64,000 bases of DNA from contig MTLY02000002.1 in assembly GCA_002011035.2 (NCBI GenBank), positions 320,001 to 384,000 on the forward strand, written 5' to 3'. This DNA comes from Candidatus Hecatella orcuttiae (GTDB taxonomy: Archaea > Thermoproteota > Bathyarchaeia > Hecatellales > Hecatellaceae). Positions 457-38,493 of the stretch are shown here, piece after piece; within the stretch, counting starts at the first letter, position 1; the number at the start of each line of letters is the position of its first letter. The notes below the pieces were generated by a model, which saw only the letters and a program-made list of their open reading frames with translations, searched no databases and had not been told where the DNA came from. The position numbers and the translations under genes were made by a program.

Positions 457-648
457 CTATTTCTTTCTTTTAACCTTCTGTTTTCGCTGGGGTTTTCGGC
501 TTTTAGACCGCGACTTAGGCGTAGGCTTCTTTTTCAGGGAGCGCTTGGAAGAAGTTTTAATTCCCCTTTTTCTCCGATACATAGCTCGAACGGTGTTTAC
601 CGCCATTTTTCTCCGGGATAGGGGGTTGTCTCCCAGTCTCTTGCTCAT
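457..648 (-). CDS. Small, very basic protein translationally coupled to parA
   Basis: 63 aa, K/R-rich; its ATG overlaps the parA stop (ATGA). Confidence 0.55.
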   Translation of the reverse strand: MSKRLGDNPLSRRKMAVNTVRAMYRRKRGIKTSSKRSLKKKPTPKSRSKSRKPQRKQKVKRKK

Positions 649-1394
649 CCTACAAACTCCTTGGCCAAGTTCAGATAAGCTTTCGCCCCCGTGCTTCTGG
701 GAGCATAGGTTATGATAGGCTGGTGGTGGCTGGGCGACTCCGCCAACTTCACGTTGATGGGAATCACGGTCTTGAAAACTTTACCCCTGAAGGCGTTTCT
801 AACCTTTTCCTCCACTTCCTTGGACAGGGAAGTTCGCCTGTCGTACATGGTCAGGACGATGCCCTTGACTGAAAGGTTAGGGTTAAGGTCTTCCTTGATG
901 GTGTTAACGGTGTCCAGCAGTTTGGTAACACCGTCCATGGCAAAATAATGAGTCTGAATGGGAATAATAACCTGGTCGCAGGCGGTTAAGGCGTTAACCG
1001 TCAAAAGCCCCAGGGAAGGAGGAGTGTCGATGAAAACATAGTCAAACCCGTCTAAAGCCTTCAACTTCCGCTTAAGCCTGAACTGCATGTTAACCTCGTT
1101 GGCCAGCTGAACCTGGGCAGCGCTTAATCCTATGCTGGAGGGAGCCAAACTTAGGTTGGGGAAGTCGGTCTTCAGGGTGATGTCTTCCAGTTTAATCTCA
1201 TCCTTCATCAGCAGGTCGCAGGTGGAACTTTGGGGGTTATTTCTCGTCAGATAGTCGGTGGCGTTGGCCTGAGGGTCCAAGTCGACCAGCAACGTGTTGA
1301 AAGAGAAAGAAGACAGAGAAGCAGCTAGGTTGACGCAGAGGTCCGTTTTCCCTACGCCGCCCTTCTGGTTGGCTATGGCGATTTTAACGGTCAT
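645..1394 (-). CDS. parA: ParA/Soj-family ATPase
   Basis: Deviant Walker A NQKGGVGKT, DLDPQAN, DTPPSLG, Soj-like LTMYDRRT and LAESPS. Confidence 0.92.
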   Translation of the reverse strand: MTVKIAIANQKGGVGKTDLCVNLAASLSSFSFNTLLVDLDPQANATDYLTRNNPQSSTCDLLMKDEIKLEDITLKTDFPNLSLAPSSIGLSAAQVQLANEVNMQFRLKRKLKALDGFDYVFIDTPPSLGLLTVNALTACDQVIIPIQTHYFAMDGVTKLLDTVNTIKEDLNPNLSVKGIVLTMYDRRTSLSKEVEEKVRNAFRGKVFKTVIPINVKLAESPSHHQPIITYAPRSTGAKAYLNLAKEFVG

Positions 1395-27122: not shown

Positions 27123-28223
27123 TTGAAGACCATCATCTTAGCCGGCGGCTACGCCACTAGGCTGAGGCCTCTGAGTATCACGCTGCCTAAACCCCTTTTT
27201 CCCATCCTCGACAAGCCCATCCTCGACTGGATGATGGAAGGCCTAAGCCGGGCAGGTTTGAAGAACATCATCCTCTCCATCCGGTATTTTGCAGAGGAAA
27301 TCATGGGAAGATATAGCACCGGCCTTGACTTCGGCGTAGACGTTCGCTACGCTCGCGAGGTTACCCCTTTAGGGGATGCAGGTCCTCTGCGTCTGATCCA
27401 CAGCCTCTACGGGCTGGATGAAACTTTCATGGTGGTTAACGGAGACATCTTCGGAAACATCGACTTCCAAGCTGTGGTGGATTTCCACCGAAGAAAGGGA
27501 GGGATCGCCACCGTTCTGCTTACCAAAGTTAAAGACCCCGGGCACTACGGCGTAGCTGTACTCGACTCGGAGGGCAGGATCGTGAAATTCGTGGAGAAGC
27601 CCAAAGCCAGAGAGGCGCCTTCCAACCTAGCCAATGCAGGGGTTTACATCTTCGAACCAGAAGTCTTGAAGTTCGTGCCTGAAAATGCGAGGATGAAGCT
27701 GGCCGCGGAGCTGATGCCGCAGCTACTTTCCACTGGAAACGTTTTCGGCTGCATTCATGAAGGCCTGTGGACGGACATCGGTAACCTTTCAGCTTTCCTC
27801 CAAGCCAACTTCGATGCCCTGAAACTTTACCGCCCTGAGGGCTATGTAAGCCCCAACGCAGAGGTTCACCCCGAAGCCGAGCTCCTCCAACCAGTTTACG
27901 TCTCCCACGCTGTGAGGGTGGACGCTTACTCCAAGGTGGGCCCCTACGCCGTGCTAGGCCGGGACACCACTGTGGGAAAAACCGCCAGGGTCTACCGAAG
28001 CGTCCTGTTTCCCTCCGCCTTCATCGACACCGGAGCCTTGGTGAAAGGCAGCATCGTGGGTAACGGTGTTGTGGCTGGGAAATGGACTACCTTCAGTGAG
28101 GGAGTAGTAGTGGGGGGCGACGTCACAGTAGCCGACGAGGTCACCCTTGCCTCCGGCGTCATCGTTTTCCCCTACAAAGAGCTCACTGAAAGCGTGGAGG
28201 AGCCGGGAAAGATCATCGTTTAA
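27123..28223 (+). CDS. NDP-sugar pyrophosphorylase (second paralog)
   Basis: LAGGYATRLRPL...PKPL, NGD, FVEKP, LbH domain. Confidence 0.9.
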   Translation: MKTIILAGGYATRLRPLSITLPKPLFPILDKPILDWMMEGLSRAGLKNIILSIRYFAEEIMGRYSTGLDFGVDVRYAREVTPLGDAGPLRLIHSLYGLDETFMVVNGDIFGNIDFQAVVDFHRRKGGIATVLLTKVKDPGHYGVAVLDSEGRIVKFVEKPKAREAPSNLANAGVYIFEPEVLKFVPENARMKLAAELMPQLLSTGNVFGCIHEGLWTDIGNLSAFLQANFDALKLYRPEGYVSPNAEVHPEAELLQPVYVSHAVRVDAYSKVGPYAVLGRDTTVGKTARVYRSVLFPSAFIDTGALVKGSIVGNGVVAGKWTTFSEGVVVGGDVTVADEVTLASGVIVFPYKELTESVEEPGKIIV

Positions 28224-28237
28224 CATGTTTTCTTTAA

Positions 28238-28256
28238 ACCCCCCTTTCCACTGGAA
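28238..28256 (-). promoter_or_regulatory. Distal ORB-like Orc1/Cdc6 binding site
   Basis: Minus strand TTCCAGTGGAAAGGGGGGT, intergenic. Confidence 0.55.
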
Positions 28257-28312
28257 GAAAACCGAGGGAATTCCAACCATCCCAGGAAAGCAAGCGCCGC
28301 GACGGGCCTCAA

Positions 28313-29044
28313 TTGATGCTATGGGTTTTTTTGGGACTGTGTCAGAGGGAATTTTACATGGGCGCGAAAACCTCTAAACGGCGGGGGAGAGAGCCTCCCC
28401 ATTCCTCAGGACTCTCCTTCCTTGAGGTAAAGGAAGAAAAGCAGAGGCTTAGGCGTAGAATCTGGAGGCTGCTGGAACAACGCCAAGCGGCATTATTTCC
28501 TTTCCCCGTTTGGGGGAGGATGCCCAACTTCGTAGGCTCGGATGTCGCTGCTGAAAGGCTCCGCCAGCTAAAAGAGTGGGCTGCTGCTTCGGTTGTTTTC
28601 TGCAACCCCGACTACGCTCAAAAACCCGTCAGGGAAAGAGTCCTCAAGGACGGGAAAGCTCTGCTCATGGCTACGCCTAGGCTTAAGGCCGGCTTCCTTT
28701 TCATCCCTCCAAGGGACGCAAGAGGCAGGGAAAGCTACCTAGCCACCATCAAGGGGGCCTTCCGCCACGGCACCGCCCTTCCACTGGAGCGGGCTCCGAA
28801 ACCCGACTTGCTGGTCACTGGCTGCGTGGCGGTGGACTTGGAAGGCTTCAGGCTTGGAAAGGGCGGCGGCTACGGGGACAGAGAAATCAGAGAGATTCAG
28901 GAAAGGTTCGGCAGGATTCTCGTGGTCACCACCGTCCACGACTTACAAGTGGTGGACAAGGTTCCAGTGGAAAAGGGGGATGTGAAAGTCGACATCATCG
29001 TAACCCCAACTCAAACCTACCGGGTTGACGGGAAGGAAAGCTAA
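28313..29044 (+). CDS. 5-formyltetrahydrofolate cyclo-ligase family protein
   Basis: PNFVG, NPD..Q, TPRL, RLGKGGGYGD, VHDLQ, DIIVTP. Confidence 0.88.
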   Translation: MMLWVFLGLCQREFYMGAKTSKRRGREPPHSSGLSFLEVKEEKQRLRRRIWRLLEQRQAALFPFPVWGRMPNFVGSDVAAERLRQLKEWAAASVVFCNPDYAQKPVRERVLKDGKALLMATPRLKAGFLFIPPRDARGRESYLATIKGAFRHGTALPLERAPKPDLLVTGCVAVDLEGFRLGKGGGYGDREIREIQERFGRILVVTTVHDLQVVDKVPVEKGDVKVDIIVTPTQTYRVDGKES

Positions 29045-30208: not shown

Positions 30209-31414
30209 CTATTTAATGAATCCTTTGAGGTGTAGGTCTTCTCGGAAAATTCTTTCCAAAGTGCTGAAGGGCACTTTTAAACGGATTTTTTTAGTCCGCC
30301 CATAACGTCCTAGGCTGGCAATTTTGGCATTAACCGCCCCCAGCATGTCCAACTCGTTCAGGAGGCCGCTTATCCTCCGCTGAGTCAGGGCTTCAACTCC
30401 AATCCTCTGAGAGAGTTCCTCATAAGCCTCATAAAGTTCTCCAGAAAAGAGGCCTTCTCTCGCCGTCTGCTTTTTTTCGTAGAGCACAAAAAGAATTAGC
30501 TTAGAATGAAGGGGGAGAGAGTTTAAAACCTCCAAAACCCGGTCATGTTCTATCTTCCTCTGCGCATCTCGCACATGCTCCTCCGTCACTACACTGGCGC
30601 CGTCCCTCTCAGCCACTTCCCCAGCAACCCTTACCAAGTCGAGAGCCCGCCTTGCATCCCCATGCTCAGCGGCAGCAAGGGCTGCACAGAGGTTCAGTGT
30701 AGCGGAGGGAAGACTTCCGTTGCGGAAGGCCAACTTTACCCTCTGTTGCAGAATATCCCGAATCTGCTCAGCGCTATAAGGTTTGAAGACCATTTCCTCT
30801 TCGCTGAGGCTGCTGAGGACTCTGGCGTCTAACATGTCCTTGAAATAGAGGTCGTTAGATATGCCTATGGTGGTGAGGCTGCTGGATTTCAGCTCTTCGT
30901 TGATGCGGGTTAACTTGTAGAGCAACCGGTCTCCATGTTCTTTGACTAAAGTGTCAACTTCGTCCAAAGCAACGATAAAGGCGCAACGAGCATCGTTTAA
31001 TCCTTCTTTAAACCTGTCCAAGGCTTCTGCCACTGAAAGCCCAGTGAAGGGAATGCTAACTCCTACAGCTGAGCACATGTTTGAAACTACTCTATACTCG
31101 GTTCCTGCTGCTCGGCAGTTTGTGTAACAAATTCTCACTTTTTCCCCCCTTTTTTCGCTTTTTTTAACCAATCTCTCCAGAACATACCTTGTCACCGCCG
31201 TCTTTCCTGTCCCAGTTTTACCGTAAGCAAAAAGATTGGAGCATTTCATTTTTTTAAGGGAAGGAGCAAGGATGGAGGCAAATCTTAATATTTCTTTTTC
31301 TCGGTGAGGGAGTTCTTTCGGTACAAAATCATGTCTCAAGACTTCCCTGTTTACAAATATTGAAGATTCACCTGCATATTTTTCGAAAAGCTGCTCTAGT
31401 TTATCTACAGACAA
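30209..31414 (-). CDS. cdc6: Orc1/Cdc6 replication initiator
   Basis: LPHRE, GKTGTGKT, LDEVD, GDARRALD, C-terminal wHTH with GRYGRT; TTG start at 31414 preferred (the ORF extends to 31513). Confidence 0.96.
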   Translation of the reverse strand: MSVDKLEQLFEKYAGESSIFVNREVLRHDFVPKELPHREKEILRFASILAPSLKKMKCSNLFAYGKTGTGKTAVTRYVLERLVKKSEKRGEKVRICYTNCRAAGTEYRVVSNMCSAVGVSIPFTGLSVAEALDRFKEGLNDARCAFIVALDEVDTLVKEHGDRLLYKLTRINEELKSSSLTTIGISNDLYFKDMLDARVLSSLSEEEMVFKPYSAEQIRDILQQRVKLAFRNGSLPSATLNLCAALAAAEHGDARRALDLVRVAGEVAERDGASVVTEEHVRDAQRKIEHDRVLEVLNSLPLHSKLILFVLYEKKQTAREGLFSGELYEAYEELSQRIGVEALTQRRISGLLNELDMLGAVNAKIASLGRYGRTKKIRLKVPFSTLERIFREDLHLKGFIK

Positions 31415-31530
31415 TGCCTCGCCTCTAGAACTTTCTCTAAAACAGCGAGAGACAAAATAAATGGTTGACTTAAGAAAAGAAGACATGAAACACAAAAAGA
31501 ATAGATTAGACATAAAAGATTAACCAGTAC

Positions 31531-31797
31531 ACCCGCCGGTTTCCACTGGAAAATAAGTTAGGTGCCCAGAAAAAATATATTACAAATGCCAAAAGATACC
31601 TCATACGGTTTATCTTTGTTTCAGATATAAAATTACTCAACCAAACTTTTAATGTTAACCTCAATTTCTCTGTAACAACATCACTTCTTAGAAATTTAAC
31701 TTTTCCAGTGGAAACATAGGGGTGGAGCAGGCGATATAAGTTCAAATTAAAACCGTTCACAAAATATAATATTTCAACCCCCTTATTTCCACTGGAA
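31531..31797. other. Replication origin (oriC) with three ORB elements and an AT-rich unwinding region
   Basis: ORB1 (-) 31531-31551 TTCCAGTGGAAACCGGCGGGT; ORB2 (+) 31703-31723 TTCCAGTGGAAACATAGGGGT; ORB3 (-) 31777-31797 TTCCAGTGGAAATAAGGGGGT; directly upstream of cdc6. Confidence 0.9.
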
Positions 31798-31966
31798 AAG
31801 GAAGATACGGCCTCTTAAAGGATATTTTCCTTAGAAAAGGTTGTGAAAAGGTGAAAAGAAATTTTTCTTTAGAAACTCCAATTTCTAAATTTTTCCCATA
31901 CGATCCCTGTTTGACTTCACAATTAAATTTATTACATTGTGAAGAGAAGTAAGTGAAGGACAGACG

Positions 31967-32377
31967 TTGGAATTGAGAAAGGTAAAAGTGGAGGTCGAAG
32001 ACATCAAAGGAAACAAGTACACCTTCACGGTTAGTTCTCCCATAAACCGAGATAAAATAATCAAGTTCATCGACCTAGTAGAAATGATGGCCGGTTCTTT
32101 GGAAATTAAAAATCCCTCCTCCTCAGACACGAAATTTGAAAAAATCCTCCAAACCGTGAAAGAACACTATCCTTTTCAATGGTTTACATCCACTGAAGTT
32201 CAGTTAGCTTATGAAGAAAAATTTAAGGAGCCCATAAGCCTCAGCACCGTTTCCACCTACCTAAGCAGGTACTGGGAACAAAAAATTCTAACCCGCGAAG
32301 GCTCTCCAGCCAGTCTTCGGTATAGACTTAACCCTGAGGTTTTAAATTCAGCACCGAAACAAGAACGTAGTGGCTAG
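31967..32377 (+). CDS. Winged-helix DNA-binding protein adjacent to oriC
   Basis: FTSTEVQLAYEE...ISLSTVSTYLSR....ILTREG...YRL wHTH pattern. Confidence 0.75.
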   Translation: MELRKVKVEVEDIKGNKYTFTVSSPINRDKIIKFIDLVEMMAGSLEIKNPSSSDTKFEKILQTVKEHYPFQWFTSTEVQLAYEEKFKEPISLSTVSTYLSRYWEQKILTREGSPASLRYRLNPEVLNSAPKQERSG

Positions 32378-32380
32378 AAT

Positions 32381-33100
32381 TCAGAGAGGCTCTTCTTTAA
32401 CAGAAAACTCAAAACTTTTCCTGATCCTTTCACTTAAACTATAGCTGAAAGGTATTACATCAGTGTTTCTAACCACATAACCTTCTCTGTAAAGTTTTTT
32501 CATTAACCTCGCTGCGTGCTCCCGTGTTTTGCCGATGACCTCTCTAATTTCCGGAGCTGTTTTAGGGCCGCTGCGGTACAAAACTTTTAGGACAGCCATC
32601 TCTGTGGGGGTTAAGCGAGCGATGGAGACGTTTCCCCCCTCTAGCGTTGGACTCGGCTCCTCCAAACGTGGAGTCAAGCCTCGCATTTTTTTATCTTGGG
32701 CATTAACCTGCTGTTCAAGCTGGATACGCTTTTCATCTAGGGCAGATAGTTTATCGTTATGGACTTTCAATATTTTTGCGAATTTTGTCTGAGCGCGGAA
32801 GAGCTCTTTGATATTGGCGGTTAATGCTGATAACGTTTCCCTCTCAGCTTCATGGAAAGATTGAAGGCGGTTTAACTCTGAAAAGGAAGCTTCAATTCTG
32901 TGCAGAGCATAGGAGACACTCTCCTCAACTTTAGCCATCTTCTTACTTAACTGAACTATGGAAAGCTGAACCAAGTCGCTTAACTCCCCTAGAGAACTCT
33001 TTTTAGGCCTTCTGAATAGAAGCAGTGCGAGAAGAAATCCGAAGGCCGCTGTAAAACTCAACAAGCCTAGAAAAAACACTTCTCCGGAAAAAACCGTCAT
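32381..33100 (-). CDS. Membrane-anchored coiled-coil protein with C-terminal wHTH
   Basis: N-terminal TM (aa ~8-29) followed by RRPKK, ~100-aa heptad region, LTPTEMAVLKVL...TAPEIREVIGKTREHAARLMKKL..EGYV.R. Confidence 0.8.
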   Translation of the reverse strand: MTVFSGEVFFLGLLSFTAAFGFLLALLLFRRPKKSSLGELSDLVQLSIVQLSKKMAKVEESVSYALHRIEASFSELNRLQSFHEAERETLSALTANIKELFRAQTKFAKILKVHNDKLSALDEKRIQLEQQVNAQDKKMRGLTPRLEEPSPTLEGGNVSIARLTPTEMAVLKVLYRSGPKTAPEIREVIGKTREHAARLMKKLYREGYVVRNTDVIPFSYSLSERIRKSFEFSVKEEPL

Positions 33101-33118
33101 GAAATCTCACTCACCCTC

Positions 33119-33499
33119 TCACATGTGACCTGAAGAAAATCACAGAAATAATCACCTGTGACCTCTTCAACTGCATAATTCCCACCTGATATCACAAGTG
33201 ATGCTTTTGTAAGCAAGCACATCACATTTGACCTGACATTCATTCAAAAAATTATTCTCTTTATCAGGATTTAAACCTTGTGATTCCACCTACAAATCAT
33301 GTGACATCACGTTTATATGATAATTTTTCATTAAAAAGGAGTTATTCGGTGAAAAGAAGCTTATTTTTAGGGCTAAAATTGTTTTTAAACAATAATATAA
33401 GTTTTTATGTTAAGACATCACATGTCAAGTCACAGCTGATGTTTATTTATGATTTCAGGCGGTCACGGCATCACATGTAATCTGTGACATCACGTTTGA
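33119..33499. repeat. Array of TCAC-N2-GTGA palindromes and half sites
   Basis: TCACATGTGA 33119, TCACCTGTGA 33152, TCACAAGTGA 33192, TCACATTTGA 33222, TCACATGTCA 33418, TCACAGCTGA 33430, TCACATGTAA 33471, TCACGTTTGA 33490; 15-mer TGTGACATCACGTTT at 33300 and 33483. Confidence 0.85.
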
Positions 33500-33993
33500 T
33501 ATTTCAATGACTTGGGAGAAGTCAAAGTATTTAGGGCTTTTTCCAAGGCCTCCCTTACAGAAACAATGGTTGCGGCTCTTTGAAGTTCGTCGGAACTTGA
33601 TGAGGACTCTTCGCGGACTTGTCTATGTAAATCTAAATAGTCCTTCAGTCTACTGGACAATTCGATGTATTGTTGGAAGGCAGGCAAGTCGAAGATCCCC
33701 AGGGAGCCCAGTAATAAAAACGTGTATATTGACTTTATTATGTTTTTCTGAGCTTGTTTCAGGGTTCTATTGAAAGAACCTTTACTAATTTTTCCTTTAA
33801 TTCTAAAATAAGTTTTTTCTTCAGTTATCATTTTATTTCCAGATAAATATGGAATTATAGTGTCTATTAGAAACGTTTCCAGCTGCGTTTTGGTTAAATG
33901 ACTGTTTTTAAGTAGAATATCAGTGATGGGGTCTTGGTCGAGGTTTCTTAGCCATTTTTTGAATTCTTCAGGGTCCTTTAATTCCACGCTCAA
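33490..33993 (-). CDS. Putative HTH DNA-binding protein (Tfx/HTH_10-like)
   Basis: SHLTKTQLETF...KISKGSFNRTLKQAQKNI. Confidence 0.65.
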   Translation of the reverse strand: MSVELKDPEEFKKWLRNLDQDPITDILLKNSHLTKTQLETFLIDTIIPYLSGNKMITEEKTYFRIKGKISKGSFNRTLKQAQKNIIKSIYTFLLLGSLGIFDLPAFQQYIELSSRLKDYLDLHRQVREESSSSSDELQRAATIVSVREALEKALNTLTSPKSLKYQT

Positions 33994-34132
33994 GGAAACA
34001 CCCTGAAAGAATACGTTTTTGTATACCAGTATTTAAATCTTCCCGCAATCATAAGGTCTAAGGTTCCAATTTTTGGAGGCTTACCATACCTTTAGAAGCT
34101 AGGTGAGCAGGGAAACCCAGGCTTTCCGGAGG

Positions 34133-35428
34133 CTAAACAGAAATCTTGGCGGAAAAAGGCTTACCGCCAAAGGTTTTTTCACAGACTTCCGCAACTTTTT
34201 CACGGAATTGCGGCAAGGTATAGACTCTCACAATGTCCATAAACTGGGTTAGGGATGCTAAAAGAGGAGAAAGCTCCGTGGCTTTTTGAACAATCACACC
34301 CGCAGGGGTCTTCCGGTAGACGAGGATGTCTGACCGCTGCCTCTCCACTGGGTTGATGGGTACGGAAAGAACTTGAGGGACGTCGATGACGATGAAGTCC
34401 GGGTCAACTCCGGTTTTTTCCCCGATTTCAACCTCAACCTCGCGGCGGATGTTAGGTTTGTTGAGGAGGTTGGAAAAGAAGGTGTCTTTTCTGAATATGA
34501 TAAGCTCGTAGGTGCTCTTCAGAAGCTTTCTGCTGCGAACCCCCAAAATATATTGGTAGGCTTTCTGAAGCTTTTGGTCGACTTCCTTCTTGAGGGAGAG
34601 CAGTCCTTCTAGGACTTTACCGTCGTCCAATCGGAGAAACTCCTCCACGTCTTTGAAGGAGGCGAGGCCCAATTTTTCGCAGGCAAAATCCATGGCCCTT
34701 GCAATCATAACATTAGTCGCCCGCACTGTTCGGTGGAAGTAGACAGTGTTAAACATTTCCATCCTAGCGATGATGAAGGATTCCAAGACGCCGAAAGCCC
34801 CTGAACCGTCGGCCATCAGCCTCTTCTCTATCAACTCTAGGGATGAGATAAGCCGCTGGGCATCCACCTTTCCATATTCCACTCCAGCGAAGTAGGAGTC
34901 CCGAGCCAGATAGTCCATGATGTCTGCGGAAAAGTGGCCGGCGATAACCTGGTTCAGAAAAATTCTCTCCGTACGGTCTAAATGTCCTGTGGAAAGCTGA
35001 GCTATCTCTTTCTTGGAGAAGCCATGACTGGAAAGGATGTCCCCGATTTCGCTGCTCTCAATCACCCACTGGGTGAGGTCTTCGTGAGTTTGATGGCGGT
35101 GCTTTTCGAGGATTTCTTCGTAGACATGGGAGAAGGGGCCGTGGCCTACGTCATGAAGCAGCCCTGCTAGACGGACTTTTTGAATTTCCTCCTCCGAAAT
35201 GTAGCCCTTTTCGGCGAGATAGACTCCCAGCATGCCTGCCAAGTGCATAACCCCGAGGGAGTGGAGGAAACGGGTGTGAACGGCGCCAGGGTAGGTTAGC
35301 TCAGCTCCTGCCAGCTGCTTGATGTTCCTCAGCCTCTGGACGGGGGTGGAATCGATGAGCTTCTTCTCCACTTCTGTGAATCGGATGTAACCGTGGACAG
35401 GGTCCTTGATTTCTCCAACTCCTTTCAA
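34133..35428 (-). CDS. HD-domain phosphohydrolase (SAMHD1/dNTPase-like)
   Basis: DPVHG, QRLRNIKQL, HTRFLHSLG, LLHDVGHGPFSH, DYL.RD, VYFH. Confidence 0.9.
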   Translation of the reverse strand: MKGVGEIKDPVHGYIRFTEVEKKLIDSTPVQRLRNIKQLAGAELTYPGAVHTRFLHSLGVMHLAGMLGVYLAEKGYISEEEIQKVRLAGLLHDVGHGPFSHVYEEILEKHRHQTHEDLTQWVIESSEIGDILSSHGFSKKEIAQLSTGHLDRTERIFLNQVIAGHFSADIMDYLARDSYFAGVEYGKVDAQRLISSLELIEKRLMADGSGAFGVLESFIIARMEMFNTVYFHRTVRATNVMIARAMDFACEKLGLASFKDVEEFLRLDDGKVLEGLLSLKKEVDQKLQKAYQYILGVRSRKLLKSTYELIIFRKDTFFSNLLNKPNIRREVEVEIGEKTGVDPDFIVIDVPQVLSVPINPVERQRSDILVYRKTPAGVIVQKATELSPLLASLTQFMDIVRVYTLPQFREKVAEVCEKTFGGKPFSAKISV

Positions 35429-36777: not shown

Positions 36778-37413
36778 TTGAAACCGCTTAAAAACTGGGA
36801 AAAGAAGGATTCTCTCTTCGGAAAAATTAGCGACCGCTTCCACCGCACTCCGCCTTTGAGGGATAAGGTTTTCAACTCCCTCTACAAACTTAACAGCATC
36901 CAAGCTAAACTGGAGCAGTTGACCAACAAACTGGAGCAGAAGGATCGGGAGCTCTTTGGCAAATGCGCTGAATCCATGGCCCGGGGAGATGAGGAGCGTT
37001 CGAAGATCTATGCCAACGAGTGCGCTCAGCTGAGGAAGATGGCTAAAACCGTTTTGGGAAGCCAGCTGGCCATCGAGCAGGCTGCTTTAAGGCTGGAGAC
37101 GGTGAAGGAATTCGGAGACGTGGCCAAGGAGATGATGCCTGTAGCTGGTGTAGTTCGGTCGTTGAAAGGGAAGCTGGTGGGAGTTATGCCTGAAGCCTCC
37201 TTGGAGCTCAACGAAATTGGAGAAACATTAAACGAGATCATGTTCGAGGCGGGGGAAGTCTCCGCGTCGGCTCCCAGCTTCCAAGCCTCAGGGGAAGAGG
37301 CTCAGAAAATCCTTCAGTCCGCTTCGGTTTTGGCTGAGCAGAAAATGAAAGAGAAATTCCCCAAACTTCCAGTGGGAGAATTTGCGGAGGAGCGTTCTCC
37401 CGACCTCGGCTAG
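36778..37413 (+). CDS. ESCRT-III / CdvB-family protein (Snf7 core)
   Basis: LFGKC....GD..RSKIYANE..QLRK, LRLETV.EFGD, GVMPE, EEAQKIL..A...AE, FPKLP (MIM2-like). Confidence 0.9.
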   Translation: MKPLKNWEKKDSLFGKISDRFHRTPPLRDKVFNSLYKLNSIQAKLEQLTNKLEQKDRELFGKCAESMARGDEERSKIYANECAQLRKMAKTVLGSQLAIEQAALRLETVKEFGDVAKEMMPVAGVVRSLKGKLVGVMPEASLELNEIGETLNEIMFEAGEVSASAPSFQASGEEAQKILQSASVLAEQKMKEKFPKLPVGEFAEERSPDLG

Positions 37414-37515: not shown

Positions 37516-38493
37516 ATGGGAAGAGAGGAAAGACTTGAAGATGAAGTCCTAAGGATCTTTTTCGTCCTCTTGTCTGTGGTGAGTTGGTTTTTTATTCTCC
37601 AGTGGGCAGCGGAGCTTCTAGGCTGGCCCAGCCGGCCGGCGGGGTGGTCCTACCTCGCCGCCTTCTACGGGGCCTCTGCCGCCTATCTGGTGGGAAGGAC
37701 GAAAGGGCGGCTTAGAAAGGTCGTCTACGACTCCCCTTTTGCCGCTTATATCAACCTCCTGATAATCCTCGTCCCCCTATTCCTCATCTACCTAGCCTTG
37801 GCAAATCCCCCGCTGGAGGAGGCTCCTGGAAAAATCAGCCGACTGACGGCTTCAAGCCCCCTCACCTTGGCTTCAGGTTGGCTTTTCTCCTTCACCGCCT
37901 ACAGGTTTCTGGACAAGCTCTACGACAGGATTTTTGGGGTTTTCGAAAAAACCGGCCCCAGAGTCAGCTTCAAGACATCCGGCCCCATTCAAAGAGATGC
38001 GGAGGAGGTAGCGGGGAGGCTTGAGGTTGAGGCTGGAAAGCTGGCAGCCAAAGCCTCTGCTTGGGAGAAGCATGCCCACAGGTTGTACGATAAAGCCTTA
38101 GCAGCTCAGGTTTCAGGAAAAGCCGATAAAGCCAGCGCCTACCTTACAGCCTACTGGGAGGCGAAGAAGAACTCAGACCTGCTGGTGAAGGTGCAGGTGC
38201 AACTGGAAGGCTTAGTGGAGAGGCTTAAAACCCTCCACAGCTTCGCGGAAACCATGGCCGAGATGCCCTCCGCCTTCAAAACCATTTCAGAGCTTAAAGG
38301 GAGACTGAAGGGAGTTATTCCCGCTTTCTCCGGCGAACTGGAGAAGATAGGGCGAACGGTAGAAGAGCTTCTGGCCAAGACGCAGGCTCACGGCGGCAGC
38401 CTCCCAGAACAGCTCCAGGGAAAAGAGGCTCAAAAAATCCTCCTAGAAGCCGGCGGCGTAGCAGAGGCGAGGCTGAGGCATGGGAAAGACTAA
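37516..38493 (+). CDS. Transmembrane domain fused to a CdvB/ESCRT-III-like domain
   Basis: 3-4 hydrophobic segments in aa 12-130; C-terminal ~170 aa aligns collinearly with the neighbouring CdvB (LKGRLKGVIP vs LKGKLVGVMP; GKEAQKIL vs GEEAQKIL). Confidence 0.8.
   Translation: MGREERLEDEVLRIFFVLLSVVSWFFILQWAAELLGWPSRPAGWSYLAAFYGASAAYLVGRTKGRLRKVVYDSPFAAYINLLIILVPLFLIYLALANPPLEEAPGKISRLTASSPLTLASGWLFSFTAYRFLDKLYDRIFGVFEKTGPRVSFKTSGPIQRDAEEVAGRLEVEAGKLAAKASAWEKHAHRLYDKALAAQVSGKADKASAYLTAYWEAKKNSDLLVKVQVQLEGLVERLKTLHSFAETMAEMPSAFKTISELKGRLKGVIPAFSGELEKIGRTVEELLAKTQAHGGSLPEQLQGKEAQKILLEAGGVAEARLRHGKD

What the first reader, a model, noticed from the sequence alone, without database searches (positions are those of the whole stretch)
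31967..33993. oriC-linked module of a membrane-anchored wHTH protein, two soluble HTH proteins and a palindrome array: candidate origin-tethering or segregation system
Seen: directly beside cdc6/oriC, in an AT-rich block, lie a wHTH protein (31967-32377), a TM + long coiled coil + wHTH protein (32381-33100), a non-coding repeat array and a Tfx/HTH_10-like protein (33490-33993). Known: archaeal origins can carry non-Orc initiators (Sulfolobus WhiP), and segregation systems pair a DNA-binding protein with clustered sites (SegAB, AspA-ParB-ParA). I do not recognise these three proteins as any of those. Inference: the TM-coil-wHTH protein is built like a tether that could hold origin DNA at the membrane, with the array acting as a centromere-like site.
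Basis: partly seen in the sequence, partly recalled or inferred. Interest (0 to 1): 0.88.

Follow-up and report, generated by a model that had tools for sequence, protein, structure and literature searches.

The report
Conserved membrane-anchored DNA binder beside archaeal origin
Next to the replication origin of this Bathyarchaeia genome sits a gene for a membrane-anchored DNA-binding protein preceded by a dense array of 7-bp repeats, a pairing kept across two archaeal classes that may hold the origin at the membrane or may only regulate the gene itself.

Summary
Cdc6 (30209-31513) and three ORB boxes are followed by P1 (wHTH), P2 (N-terminal TM helix, coiled coil, MarR-type wHTH), a 389-bp array and P3 (helical, no family).

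- **Array.** It is built from TGTGAY/RTCACA units. 11 of the window's 27 hexamers lie in it (0.17 expected), and no other cluster in the 1.75-Mb genome comes close.
- **Register.** In 77 arrays the units sit in a 7-bp register or as TGTGAYRTCACA palindromes.
- **Synteny.** The order P3-array-P2-P1-ORB-Cdc6 recurs in 77 of 80 Bathyarchaeia loci and in 6 of 6 loci of a Nitrososphaerota-like family.
- **Coupling.** The array goes with P2. Four near-complete genomes without P2 keep P3 and P1 beside Cdc6 but have no array.

Best reading (0.45): P2 binds the array in front of its own gene, represses itself, and thereby holds origin-proximal DNA at the membrane, as RicO and RacA do in bacteria. No binding or localisation is shown.

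Against the tether reading: autoregulation alone explains much, 7 of 18 homologues outside the class lack the TM helix, and 6 of 23 relatives' loci have no Cdc6 within about 9 kb. My searches found no description in print.

The parts
30209..31513 (-). Orc1/Cdc6 initiator gene
   Evidence: Pfam Cdc6_lid 7e-26, Cdc6_C 1.9e-24, AAA_22. It is one of two Cdc6_C matches in the genome.
31530..31800 (.). oriC core: three ORB boxes (31540-31552, 31702-31714 inverted, 31786-31798) with AT-rich spacers
   Evidence: Exact or 1-mismatch matches to TTTCCACTGGAAA. Inverted repeats I1 and I2. GC 0.33. ORB boxes lie between Cdc6 and P1/P2 in most related loci.
31915..31944 (.). Palindrome CTTCACAAT..ATTGTGAAG just upstream of P1: a likely P1 operator over its promoter
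   Evidence: Inverted repeat I14. TTCACN-N6-22-NGTGAA lies within about 170 nt upstream of P1 in 46 of 70 loci, against 36 of 1400 control windows. It is also seen by eye in the four P2-less loci printed.
31967..32377 (+). P1: 136-aa protein with an N-terminal beta-beta-alpha unit and a C-terminal winged helix
   Evidence: AF2 pLDDT 78. Foldseek matches to wHTH regulators. Weak Penicillinase_R hits in 9 of 12 family members. Present in 21 of 41 relatives.
32381..33100 (-). P2: 239-aa protein with an N-terminal TM helix (about residues 8-30, followed by RRPKK), a coiled coil (about 40-150) and a C-terminal MarR-type wHTH (163-213)
   Evidence: Pfam MarR 1.2e-6, above the cut-off. Kyte-Doolittle 19-mer mean 2.35. 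Invariant R193, E194, H195, R198 and K201 in the alignment of 22. Present in 102 of 151 class genomes.
33101..33499 (.). Repeat array of TGTGAY/RTCACA units. Proximal cluster 33119-33231, central pair 33279-33310 beside a TTTAAA box at 33270-33275, distal cluster 33417-33499 that overlaps the P3 stop codon
   Evidence: 11 hexamers and 16 pentamers, 0 of 2000 shuffles as rich. It is the richest 400-nt window of the genome, with 11 hexamers against 5 for the next best. The same motif and place recur in relatives.
33490..33993 (-). P3: 167-aa all-helical protein of an unnamed family, with a conserved DPI..LL.NS.LT..Q.E N-terminal part and a C-terminal helical hairpin (103-167)
   Evidence: AF2 pLDDT 89, pTM 0.81. 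No family hit. 154 relatives in genome contigs. Present in 29 of 41 relatives.

Best explanation
**What is proposed.** P2 is a single-pass membrane protein. A short N-terminus faces out, and the coiled coil and MarR-type winged helix sit in the cytoplasm. Its winged helix recognises the TGTGAY units packed into the 389-bp array in front of its own gene.

**How it would work.** The array overlaps the P2 5' region, so occupancy would repress P2 (autoregulation). The binder is fixed in the membrane and the array lies 1.3 kb from the ORB boxes. The same complex would therefore hold origin-proximal DNA at the cell membrane. That makes P2 a functional analogue of bacterial RicO and RacA, with an array built like the heptad centromere of pSM19035.

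**The other two genes.** P1 is a separate, self-regulated wHTH protein with its own operator. P3 is a conserved helical partner of unknown action that almost always accompanies P2.

**Shown here.** The anatomy, the uniqueness of the array in the genome, its 7-bp register, the conservation across two classes, and the co-occurrence of array and P2.

**Inferred.** That P2 is the binder, the membrane topology, repression, and any role in origin positioning or segregation.
For: 1. **The array is real and unique.** 11 of the window's 27 hexamers fall in 389 bp, and 0 of 2000 shuffles reach that number. It is the richest 400-nt window in the 1.75-Mb genome, 11 against 5 for the next best. The genome mean is 0.16 per 400 nt.
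2. **Ordered architecture.** In 77 arrays with 613 sites, same-strand neighbours are 7 bp apart 176 times (108 + 68). Opposite-strand neighbours form the palindrome TGTGAYRTCACA 49 times.
3. **Synteny.** 77 of 80 Bathyarchaeia loci have P2 after P3, and 76 of those 77 have at least 5 hexamers there against a background median of 0.44 per 500 nt. 68 of the 77 have Cdc6 0.8-4.1 kb on.
4. **The array goes with P2.**
   - G015, G022, G032 and G037 (96-100% complete) keep P3 and P1, with Cdc6 adjacent or within about 7 kb, but have no array. A P2 profile finds only coiled-coil matches in them, and the 10-bp palindrome is never clustered.
   - In L029 the array precedes P2 with no P3 beside it.
   - Over 151 class genomes, 88 of 137 tandem pairs TGTGAYNTGTGAY lie within 1.5 kb of P2, which is about 0.2% of a genome. 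Only 12 fall in the 49 genomes without P2.
5. **Invariant helix, invariant motif.** R193, E194, H195, R198 and K201 are invariant in the 22-sequence alignment. REH..R..KKL also persists in the homologues outside the class that were printed.
6. **TM helix.** It is present in 22 of 22 Bathyarchaeia P2 sequences and in 6 of 6 f32 homologues.
7. **Deep conservation.** Cdc6-P1-P2-P3 with TGTGAY enrichment (4-8 against 0.4-0.7) recurs in all six loci of f32. The Atlas assigns the P2 homologue tested (from L126) to Nitrososphaerota.
8. **Precedents.** RicO combines a DNA-binding domain, a coiled coil and a membrane helix, and anchors origins (abstract and one Results section read). The pSM19035 parS consists of 7-10 heptads WATCACW that overlap promoters (passages read).
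Against: - No binding, localisation or expression data exist. No RNA run was listed.
- The array sits exactly where an operator of P2 would sit, so autoregulation alone accounts for array-P2 coupling.
- 7 of 18 homologues outside the class have no TM helix. Membrane anchoring is therefore not the core of the family.
- 6 of 23 relatives' loci (L026, L029, L030, L031, L034, L035) have no Cdc6 within about 9 kb.
- RicO and RacA use sites spread over hundreds of kb. Here there is one cluster.
- No ParA-type ATPase is adjacent. The nearest is at window 645-1394.
- A winged helix bound every 7 bp would be sterically unusual. The known heptad binder, omega, is a ribbon-helix-helix protein.
- In the window itself the units form inverted pairs rather than long 7-bp runs.
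- GC skew gives no independent proof of the origin, and the genome has a second Cdc6.
Confidence: 0.45

Rival explanations
1. Ordinary autoregulated transcription factors. P2 represses only its own promoter, and perhaps a few distant genes, through the array. P1 represses itself through its own palindrome. Their place beside cdc6 is inherited gene order with no role in replication or segregation. The TM helix serves only to sequester or gate the regulator.
For: - The array lies in the 5' region of P2. In f32 two ATCAC units lie between an AT-rich box and the start codon.
- P1 has a separate operator over a TATA-like box in 46 of 70 loci, against 36 of 1400 controls.
- P1, P2 and P3 are separable. 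In 41 relatives P2 is found in 24, P3 in 29 and P1 in 21. Four genomes have P1 and P3 without P2, and eleven have P2 and P3 without P1.
- There are TM-less homologues (7 of 18).
- 6 of 23 loci are unlinked from Cdc6.
Against: - A median of 8 sites (3-13) per array, spread over 200-500 bp in two clusters, is far more than a simple operator needs.
- The array reaches into and past the stop codon of P3, and that part stays at P3 when other genes are inserted before P2.
- Linkage to Cdc6 is kept in 68 of 77 loci with none contradicting, and across two classes.
- The extracytoplasmic part is at most about 10 residues long, so P2 is not a ToxR-type sensor.
Confidence: 0.33
2. The array is bound by something other than P2. 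Candidates are P3, which may carry a sigma-region-4-like helix pair, or the small basic protein encoded with the ParA-like ATPase at window 457-1394. In that case the array is a true centromere that works with that ATPase, and P2 merely lies next to it.
For: - The distal cluster overlaps the P3 stop codon and stays with P3 when P2 is displaced.
- P2 is accompanied by P3 in 23 of 24 genomes.
- The known heptad centromere uses a small non-HTH binder and a ParA.
- A ParA-like gene (AAA_31, 5.4e-53) with an overlapping 63-aa basic ORF lies in the same window.
Against: - P3 and P1 persist without any array in four near-complete genomes that lack P2.
- L029 has the array with P2 but no adjacent P3.
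- The ParA pair is about 31 kb away, and I did not test whether it co-occurs with the array.
- The 63-aa ORF has no family hit.
Confidence: 0.1
3. The array is part of the replicator itself: a second set of initiator sites flanking an AT-rich unwinding stretch, used by a non-Orc factor in the manner of WhiP at Sulfolobus oriC3.
For: - Two clusters of inverted repeats flank an AT-rich centre of about 100-200 bp (GC 0.34), 1.3 kb from the ORB boxes.
- The whole block is AT-rich.
Against: - Lineages that lost P2 and the array keep Cdc6 and ORB boxes (L117-L119 of the four P2-less loci; none found in L116) and are otherwise near-complete genomes, so the array is dispensable.
- The centre carries a conserved TTTAAA box that looks like a promoter.
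- None of P1, P2 or P3 has a Pfam hit to Cdt1/WhiP-type or other initiator families above threshold.
- Six loci carry the array far from any ORB or Cdc6.
Confidence: 0.07

Closest known systems
[quoted passage not shown]
   Same: One polypeptide joins a sequence-specific DNA-binding domain, a coiled coil and a membrane-targeting element, and its sites lie near the replication origin. The proposed effect is the same: the origin is held at the cell periphery.
   Different: - RicO has the DNA-binding domain at the N-terminus and an amphipathic helix at the C-terminus. P2 has a true TM helix at the N-terminus and a MarR-type wHTH at the C-terminus.
- RicO binds nine 18-bp sites spread over about 700 kb. 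Here there is one 389-bp cluster of 5-7-bp units in front of the gene itself.
- I ran no direct sequence comparison with RicO. It belongs to a different domain of life.
parS / omega (ParB) / delta (ParA) of plasmid pSM19035 (PMC9499535; passages from abstract, Introduction and Methods read)
   Same: The arrays consist of 7-bp units with an ATCAC core (WATCACW there, NRTCACA here). The units occur in direct and inverted orientation, are contiguous in a 7-bp register, and overlap promoters, so the binder is both repressor and centromere protein.
   Different: - Omega is a ribbon-helix-helix dimer. No such protein was seen among the three genes here, and the candidate binder is a winged helix.
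- There is no adjacent ParA.
- This locus is chromosomal and archaeal.
- In this window the units are mostly inverted pairs, not runs of four or more.
MarR-family regulators (Pfam PF01047)
   Same: The P2 C-terminal domain matches the MarR winged-helix model above the curated cut-off. It probably autoregulates through inverted repeats in its own upstream region.
   Different: Only the 51-residue wHTH core matches. From recall, a typical MarR is a soluble protein of about 150 aa that dimerises through helices on both sides of the wHTH. P2 replaces these with a TM helix and a coiled coil of about 110 residues, and faces about 11-16 sites instead of one or two.
SegAB and AspA-ParB-ParA of Sulfolobus, WhiP, and UBP/ucm (PMC12141716; abstract and two Results sections read; the others from recall)
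   Same: These are archaeal site-specific DNA binders tied to chromosome or plasmid segregation, or to origins. UBP shows that non-Orc proteins can bind essential origin motifs.
   Different: - There is no ATPase partner next to the array.
- UBP is a 111-aa beta-rich protein that binds hundreds of sites.
- None of P1, P2 or P3 gave a Pfam hit to ParB, Cdt1-like or PadR models above threshold.
- None of these known systems has a membrane anchor.

Membership tests
MarR family (PF01047) | Winged-helix domain matching the family model above the curated cut-off | tested here: met
   P2 residues 163-213 score 28.7 bits against a cut-off of 24.6, E = 1.2e-6.
MarR family (PF01047) | Soluble protein of about 150 aa that dimerises through helices flanking the wHTH (feature recalled, not from a call) | tested here: not met
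   P2 has a TM helix and a coiled coil of about 110 residues N-terminal of the wHTH, and only about 25 residues after it.
Heptad centromere of the pSM19035 type (omega/parS/delta) | Four or more contiguous 7-bp repeats in direct or inverted orientation (PMC9499535) | tested here: inconclusive
   Across 77 arrays a 7-bp spacing dominates, with 176 same-strand pairs, and some loci show runs such as three overlapping tandem pairs (G009). In this window the units form inverted pairs 5-7 bp apart, with no run of four.
Heptad centromere of the pSM19035 type (omega/parS/delta) | Ribbon-helix-helix centromere-binding protein | tested here: not met
   P1 is beta-beta-alpha plus wHTH, P2 is TM plus coiled coil plus wHTH, and P3 is all-helical. 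I did not search smaller ORFs systematically.
Heptad centromere of the pSM19035 type (omega/parS/delta) | ParA-type ATPase encoded beside the centromere | tested here: not met
   The nearest CbiA/AAA_31 match in the genome is at C2:320714-321385, window 645-1394, about 31 kb away.
Origin-membrane tether (RicO/RacA kind) | DNA-binding domain, coiled coil and membrane-targeting element in one protein | tested here: met
   wHTH, coiled-coil hits for residues 45-150, and an N-terminal hydrophobic 19-mer with Kyte-Doolittle mean 2.35, conserved in 22 of 22 sequences. These are different folds in a different order from RicO.
Origin-membrane tether (RicO/RacA kind) | Specific sites concentrated in the origin-proximal region | tested here: inconclusive
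   There is one cluster 1.3 kb from the ORB boxes, unique in the genome. That P2 binds it is inferred from co-occurrence only. I did not assess scattered single sites.
Origin-membrane tether (RicO/RacA kind) | Membrane localisation and an effect on origin position or segregation | not testable with these tools
   This needs fractionation, microscopy and genetics in a cultured relative.
ToxR/CadC-type membrane-bound regulators (features recalled) | Cytoplasmic N-terminal wHTH, TM helix and extracytoplasmic sensor domain | tested here: not met
   The TM helix starts within the first 25 residues in 22 of 22 sequences, and the wHTH is C-terminal, so there is no room for a sensor domain.
Non-Orc initiator of the WhiP/Cdt1 kind | Similarity to Cdt1-type winged-helix initiators | tested here: inconclusive
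   No Cdt1-like family appears among the Pfam hits of P1, P2, P3 or of their family members at E up to 1. I made no structural comparison aimed at it.

The most novel reading that the evidence does not exclude
An ancient archaeal origin-organising system that predates the split of Bathyarchaeia and Nitrososphaeria. A membrane-embedded coiled-coil winged-helix protein coats a heptad 'centromere' beside oriC, with P3 as cofactor, and fixes the newly replicated origins to the membrane. This would give ESCRT-dividing archaea, which have no known mitotic machinery, a way to position and separate their chromosomes. It would be the first chromosome-membrane tether described in Archaea, and it is testable in cultured ammonia oxidisers.
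Probability: 0.25. Interest if true: 0.9.

Novelty: new variant of a known kind. Interest (0 to 1): 0.74.

Why it matters
How archaea outside the Sulfolobales position and separate their chromosomes is largely unknown, and I know of no archaeal protein that links DNA to the membrane. This locus offers a concrete candidate.

- It has one gene and one defined cis-site.
- It lies 1.3 kb from the origin.
- It is conserved in 102 of 151 sampled Bathyarchaeia genomes.
- It recurs in every sampled genome (26 of 26) of a family that the Atlas places in Nitrososphaerota. That group contains cultured ammonia oxidisers, so the idea can be taken to the bench.

Even if the function turns out to be plain autoregulation, three results stand. 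There is a motif and recognition helix frozen across two classes. P2 and the array appear to have been lost together. And the array converges on the ATCAC heptad design of a Gram-positive plasmid centromere. Annotators can also use the module as an origin marker in Bathyarchaeia MAGs.

Tried and rejected
**Integrated plasmid or virus partition cassette: rejected.** The gene order is vertical and class-wide. The only PHROG hits are weak wHTH matches.

**Structured RNA in the array: nothing found.** An Rfam scan of 31000-34500 at E up to 1 gave only a chance miRNA row. I did not test further whether the 66-aa ORF at 33280-33480 is a gene. It lies inside the array on the opposite strand, and I treated it as spurious.

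**GC skew to confirm the origin.** The cumulative skew on contig C2 is flat and uninformative.

**P3 fold.** Foldseek against the PDB gave no match with E below 2. VIA-align wide gave only generic helical hairpins for residues 103-167, best Z 8.0. Profile searches of PDB sequences gave only chance rows for P3, weak wHTH rows for P1 and coiled-coil noise for P2.

**Complex prediction.** P2 residues 35-239 with P3 as partner returned no verdict (score 0.00, controls not run). This is not evidence either way.

**The look-up of sequencing runs (kind rna).** No RNA holder was listed for 31400-34100. This is no evidence on expression, and read laying was therefore not used.

**Array detector.** The strict tandem pattern TGTGAYNTGTGAY is a poor detector of arrays. 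G000 itself has none, so I used it only to ask where hits fall.

**Other hexamer clusters in G000.** The clusters at C3:40451 and C3:494651 lie inside long ORFs and look like chance.

**Literature.** Five searches found no description of this module: Bathyarchaeota + replication origin + cdc6, archaea + membrane-anchored + winged helix + segregation, Nitrosopumilus + origin + cdc6 + winged helix, origin-associated gene clusters, and pSM19035 heptads. Subscription journals and supplementary files were not searchable and may hold relevant data, for example proteomics or transcript maps of ammonia oxidisers.

**Tools and scripts that failed.** Scripts 23 and 24 stopped on a bug of mine (a missing start codon in L018) and were rerun correctly. 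L018 was then left out of the P3 alignment because no ATG, GTG or TTG start precedes the match.
Full report
**What is in the window.**

They lie in a block where GC drops to 0.33-0.45 from a surrounding 0.52-0.58.

- **Cdc6.** The gene at 30209-31513 (-) is an Orc1/Cdc6 (Cdc6_lid 7e-26, Cdc6_C 1.9e-24).
- **ORB boxes.** Between Cdc6 and the next gene lie three boxes TTTCCACTGGAAA, at 31540, 31702 (inverted) and 31786. Of six exact 12-mer copies in the whole 1.75-Mb assembly, four lie within 4 kb of this spot.
- **Limits on the origin call.** GC skew is flat and adds nothing. The genome has a second Cdc6 on the same contig, at about 182.6 kb. 'oriC' here therefore rests on Cdc6 plus the ORB cluster.
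- **Organism.** It is a member of Bathyarchaeia. 76 of the 80 related public contigs returned are titled Bathyarchaeota, Bathyarchaeia, Bathyarchaeales or Ca. Hecatellales. Three are titled 'uncultured archaeon' and one 'Thermoproteota archaeon'.

**The three proteins.**

*P1 (31967-32377, +; 136 aa).* It has no Pfam hit above threshold. The family shows weak Penicillinase_R matches in 9 of 12 members. The AF2 model (pLDDT 78) has an N-terminal beta-beta-alpha unit and a C-terminal winged helix. That winged helix aligns to RosR, STIV F93 and the Fur DNA-binding domain at 2.4-2.9 A (Foldseek E about 3e-3, so the fold is clear and the family is not).

*P2 (32381-33100, -; 239 aa).*
- It matches MarR above the curated cut-off at residues 163-213.
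- Residues about 45-150 give many weak coiled-coil hits.
- It starts with a hydrophobic helix followed by RRPKK (Kyte-Doolittle 19-mer mean 2.35).
- By the positive-inside rule the coiled coil and wHTH should be cytoplasmic. This is an inference.

*P3 (33490-33993, -; 167 aa).*
- It has no hit in Pfam, NCBIfam or PHROGs.
- The AF2 model is confident (pLDDT 89) and all-helical, with a C-terminal hairpin. It has no meaningful PDB match.
- The only computed support is 1 of 22 members at E = 0.13 and an Atlas lead at 0.79. I treat the label as unconfirmed.

**The array.**

The 389-bp spacer between the P3 stop and the P2 start (33101-33489) holds 11 TGTGAY/RTCACA hexamers and 16 GTGAY/RTCAC pentamers.
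- The whole 64-kb window has 27 and 115 respectively.
- Expectation from window density is 0.17 and 0.73.
- No dinucleotide shuffle of the segment (0 of 2000) reaches 11 hexamers; the largest is 6.
- Genome-wide it is the richest 400-nt window, 11 against 5 for the next best. The runners-up lie inside long ORFs.

The units form three groups:
- a proximal cluster at 33119-33231, just upstream of P2;
- a central pair at 33279-33310, next to a TTTAAA box (33270-33275);
- a distal cluster at 33417-33499, which overlaps the P3 stop codon.

In this window they are mostly inverted pairs (ATCACNNGTGAY, GTGACATCAC).

**Conservation in Bathyarchaeia.**

- **P2 frequency.** P2 is found in 24 of 41 sampled relatives (11 of 13 in the same family) and in 102 of 151 genomes sampled over the class (71 of 95 high-quality ones).
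- **Gene order in the relatives.** In the 23 loci fetched around these matches, the order P3, spacer, P2, (P1), ORB, Cdc6 recurs.
- **Gene order in the public contigs.** In the 80 public contigs found with the P3 profile:
  - 77 have P2 downstream of P3. The other three contigs end right after P3.
  - 70 of the 77 have P1.
  - 68 of the 77 have Cdc6 0.8-4.1 kb beyond P2. The remaining 9 stop within 0.4-3.6 kb, so none contradicts.
  - These 80 are the best of 154 matches, and so lean towards closer relatives.
- **The spacer carries the same motif everywhere.** 76 of the 77 have at least 5 hexamers in the 500 nt after P3 (median 9, range 3-13). The background median is 0.44 per 500 nt.
- **Register.** Over 77 arrays (613 sites), same-strand neighbours are 7 bp apart 108 + 68 times. 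Convergent neighbours form TGTGAYRTCACA 49 times. The array is thus built from heptads in direct and inverted orientation.

**Which gene owns the array.**

Four near-complete genomes (G015, G022, G032, G037; 96-100% complete) have P3 and P1, with Cdc6 adjacent or within about 7 kb.
- They have no hexamer cluster there.
- A P2 profile finds only coiled-coil look-alikes in them.
- The 10-bp palindrome GTGAYRTCAC occurs 0-3 times and is never clustered. The P2-bearing control G002 has 3 of its 4 copies in its array.

Other observations point the same way.
- In L029 the array precedes P2 with no P3 beside it.
- Where a HypF-like gene and an XRE-CBS gene are inserted between P3 and P2, heptads remain both at the P3 stop and upstream of the P2 operon.
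- Across the 151 class genomes, 88 of 137 tandem pairs TGTGAYNTGTGAY lie within 1.5 kb of P2, 37 lie elsewhere in P2-bearing genomes, and 12 lie in the 49 genomes without P2.
- The P2 recognition helix is invariant where the motif is invariant: R193, E194, H195, R198 and K201 in 22 of 22.

So array and P2 are gained or lost together. P2 as the binder is the economical inference, but it is only an inference.

Phyletic patterns in the 41 relatives:
- All three genes: 12 genomes.
- P2 + P3 without P1: 11.
- P1 + P3 without P2: 4.
- P1 alone: 4.
- P3 alone: 2.
- P2 + P1 without P3: 1 (an 89%-complete genome).
- None: 7.

P2 is therefore almost never without P3 (23 of 24). P1 is independent.

**P1 has its own operator.**

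Just upstream of P1 lies a palindrome CTTCACAAT..ATTGTGAAG (31915-31944). It brackets a TATA-like box in relatives.
- The pattern TTCACN-N6-22-NGTGAA is found upstream of P1 in 46 of 70 loci, against 36 of 1400 control windows.
- TTCAC/GTGAA repeats are also visible by eye in the four P2-less loci printed.
- In the Nitrososphaerota-like loci that position carries a different repeat, GTTAACA.

P1 thus looks like an ordinary self-regulated wHTH protein.

**Beyond the class.**

With the P2 profile at E up to 1e-8, 119 of 201 genomes sampled over the phylum match, including 26 of 26 in family f32. The Atlas places the P2 homologue tested (from L126) among Nitrososphaerota clusters (a lead from the few members with a taxon).

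In all six f32 loci fetched:
- The order is Cdc6, P1, P2, P3 (tblastn; profile searches).
- P2 keeps the N-terminal TM helix (Kyte-Doolittle 2.3-3.2).
- Its upstream 370 nt hold 4-8 TGTGAY hexamers, against a locus mean of 0.4-0.7.
- Two of the six loci sit at the very start of complete single-contig genomes.

Other families keep P1 and P2 as a convergent pair. But 7 of 18 fetched homologues (L132, L133, L139-L143) have no TM helix, and some have little or no upstream enrichment. The module therefore predates the split of these classes, and the membrane anchor is a feature of part of the family.

**Mechanism.**

The best-supported chain has four steps.
1. P2 is anchored in the membrane by its N-terminal helix. 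The helix is shown by sequence; the topology is inferred.
2. P2 oligomerises through the coiled coil. This is inferred.
3. Its winged helices occupy the heptads in front of its own gene. This is inferred from co-occurrence and from the invariant helix and motif.
4. The direct consequence is repression of P2. The physical consequence is that DNA 1.3 kb from the ORB boxes is held at the membrane.

Whether that second consequence is the selected function is open. Points in its favour:
- the size and two-cluster layout of the array;
- its extension over the P3 stop codon;
- the persistent linkage to Cdc6 across two classes;
- the absence of any sensor domain that would make P2 a ToxR-type signal transducer.

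Points against it:
- TM-less homologues;
- six of 23 loci with no Cdc6 within about 9 kb (L026, L029, L030, L031, L034, L035);
- a single site cluster rather than dispersed sites;
- no adjacent ATPase;
- the steric oddity of winged helices every 7 bp.

I put 0.45 on 'P2 binds the array and thereby both autoregulates and tethers', 0.33 on plain autoregulation, 0.10 on another binder, and 0.07 on a replicator element.

**Comparison with known systems.**

- **RicO of S. aureus.** It has a DNA-binding domain, a coiled coil and a membrane-binding amphipathic helix. It binds nine origin-proximal sites and positions origins (abstract and one section read). P2 has the same three functional parts in a different order and with different folds.
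- **parS of pSM19035.** It consists of 7-10 contiguous heptads WATCACW, in both orientations, overlapping promoters, and is bound by the ribbon-helix-helix protein omega, which activates a ParA (passages read). The array here shares the ATCAC core, the 7-bp register, the mixed orientation and the promoter overlap. It lacks the RHH binder and the adjacent ParA.
- **Sulfolobus UBP/ucm.** This is a non-Orc origin-binding pair of unrelated fold.
- **SegAB, AspA-ParBA, WhiP and RacA.** These comparisons are from recall only.

P2 is a member of the MarR superfamily by its wHTH only. It is not a member of any of the functional systems above.

**Novelty and limits.**

Five full-text searches found no description of this module. 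Subscription journals and supplements were not covered.

Everything functional here is inference from sequence and comparative genomics.
- No RNA run was listed.
- The one complex prediction gave no verdict.
- Relatedness among the sampled genomes means the counts are not independent events. I could not count how many separate times P2 and the array were lost.

Noticed in passing
window 457-1394 (-): A ParA/Soj-type ATPase (249 aa; AAA_31 5.4e-53, CbiA 1.4e-25) whose stop overlaps the start of a 63-aa, very basic ORF with no family hit. This is a possible chromosomal partition pair, about 31 kb from the origin array.
   Followed up: partly
window 27727-27739, 28245-28257, 28961-28973: Three further ORB-like boxes (0-1 mismatch to TTTCCACTGGAAA) lie in or at the edge of coding regions, 2.5-3.8 kb on the far side of cdc6. 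With the three origin boxes they account for most of the excess over chance (18 matches against 3.0 expected).
   Followed up: no
window 36778-37413 (+) and 37516-38493 (+): Two adjacent coiled-coil genes. The first gives a weak Snf7/ESCRT-III hit (E = 3.3e-4, below the cut-off), and the second resembles it in tblastn. Both are syntenic with the origin block in the same family (HD hydrolase, PAC4-like, EndoIII, Snf7-like). Cell-division genes may therefore lie about 3-5 kb from the origin.
   Followed up: partly
L025:12900-16500 (genome G019): An ORF-poor stretch of 3.3 kb between a HypF-like gene and P3 carries at least four heptad clusters and duplicated 41-73-nt blocks (83-92% identical) about 1-2 kb apart. 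This looks like an amplified version of the array.
   Followed up: partly
L022, L025, L026, L030-L032, L132, L133, L136-L138, L141, L142: In other lineages a HypF-like carbamoyltransferase gene and/or an XRE-HTH or CBS-domain gene lies between P3 and P2. The CBS gene is co-directional with P2 and may be a fourth member of the ancestral neighbourhood.
   Followed up: no
G000:C2:182587-182865: A second Orc1/Cdc6 paralogue (Cdc6_C 8.7e-21, 411-aa frame) on the same contig. Whole-genome searches found no second copy of P1, P2 or P3. This is possibly a second origin.
   Followed up: partly
whole genome G000: TGTGAY/RTCACA is rare genome-wide: 696 sites in 1.75 Mb, against about 1700 expected for equal base use by my own arithmetic. 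This could mean avoidance of the motif outside the array, but I ran no composition-matched control.
   Followed up: no
L126, L127, L131 upstream of P1: In the Nitrososphaerota-like family the P1 upstream region carries repeated GTTAACA units instead of the TTCACA/TGTGAA palindrome of Bathyarchaeia. This is a possible case of operator and regulator changing together.
   Followed up: no
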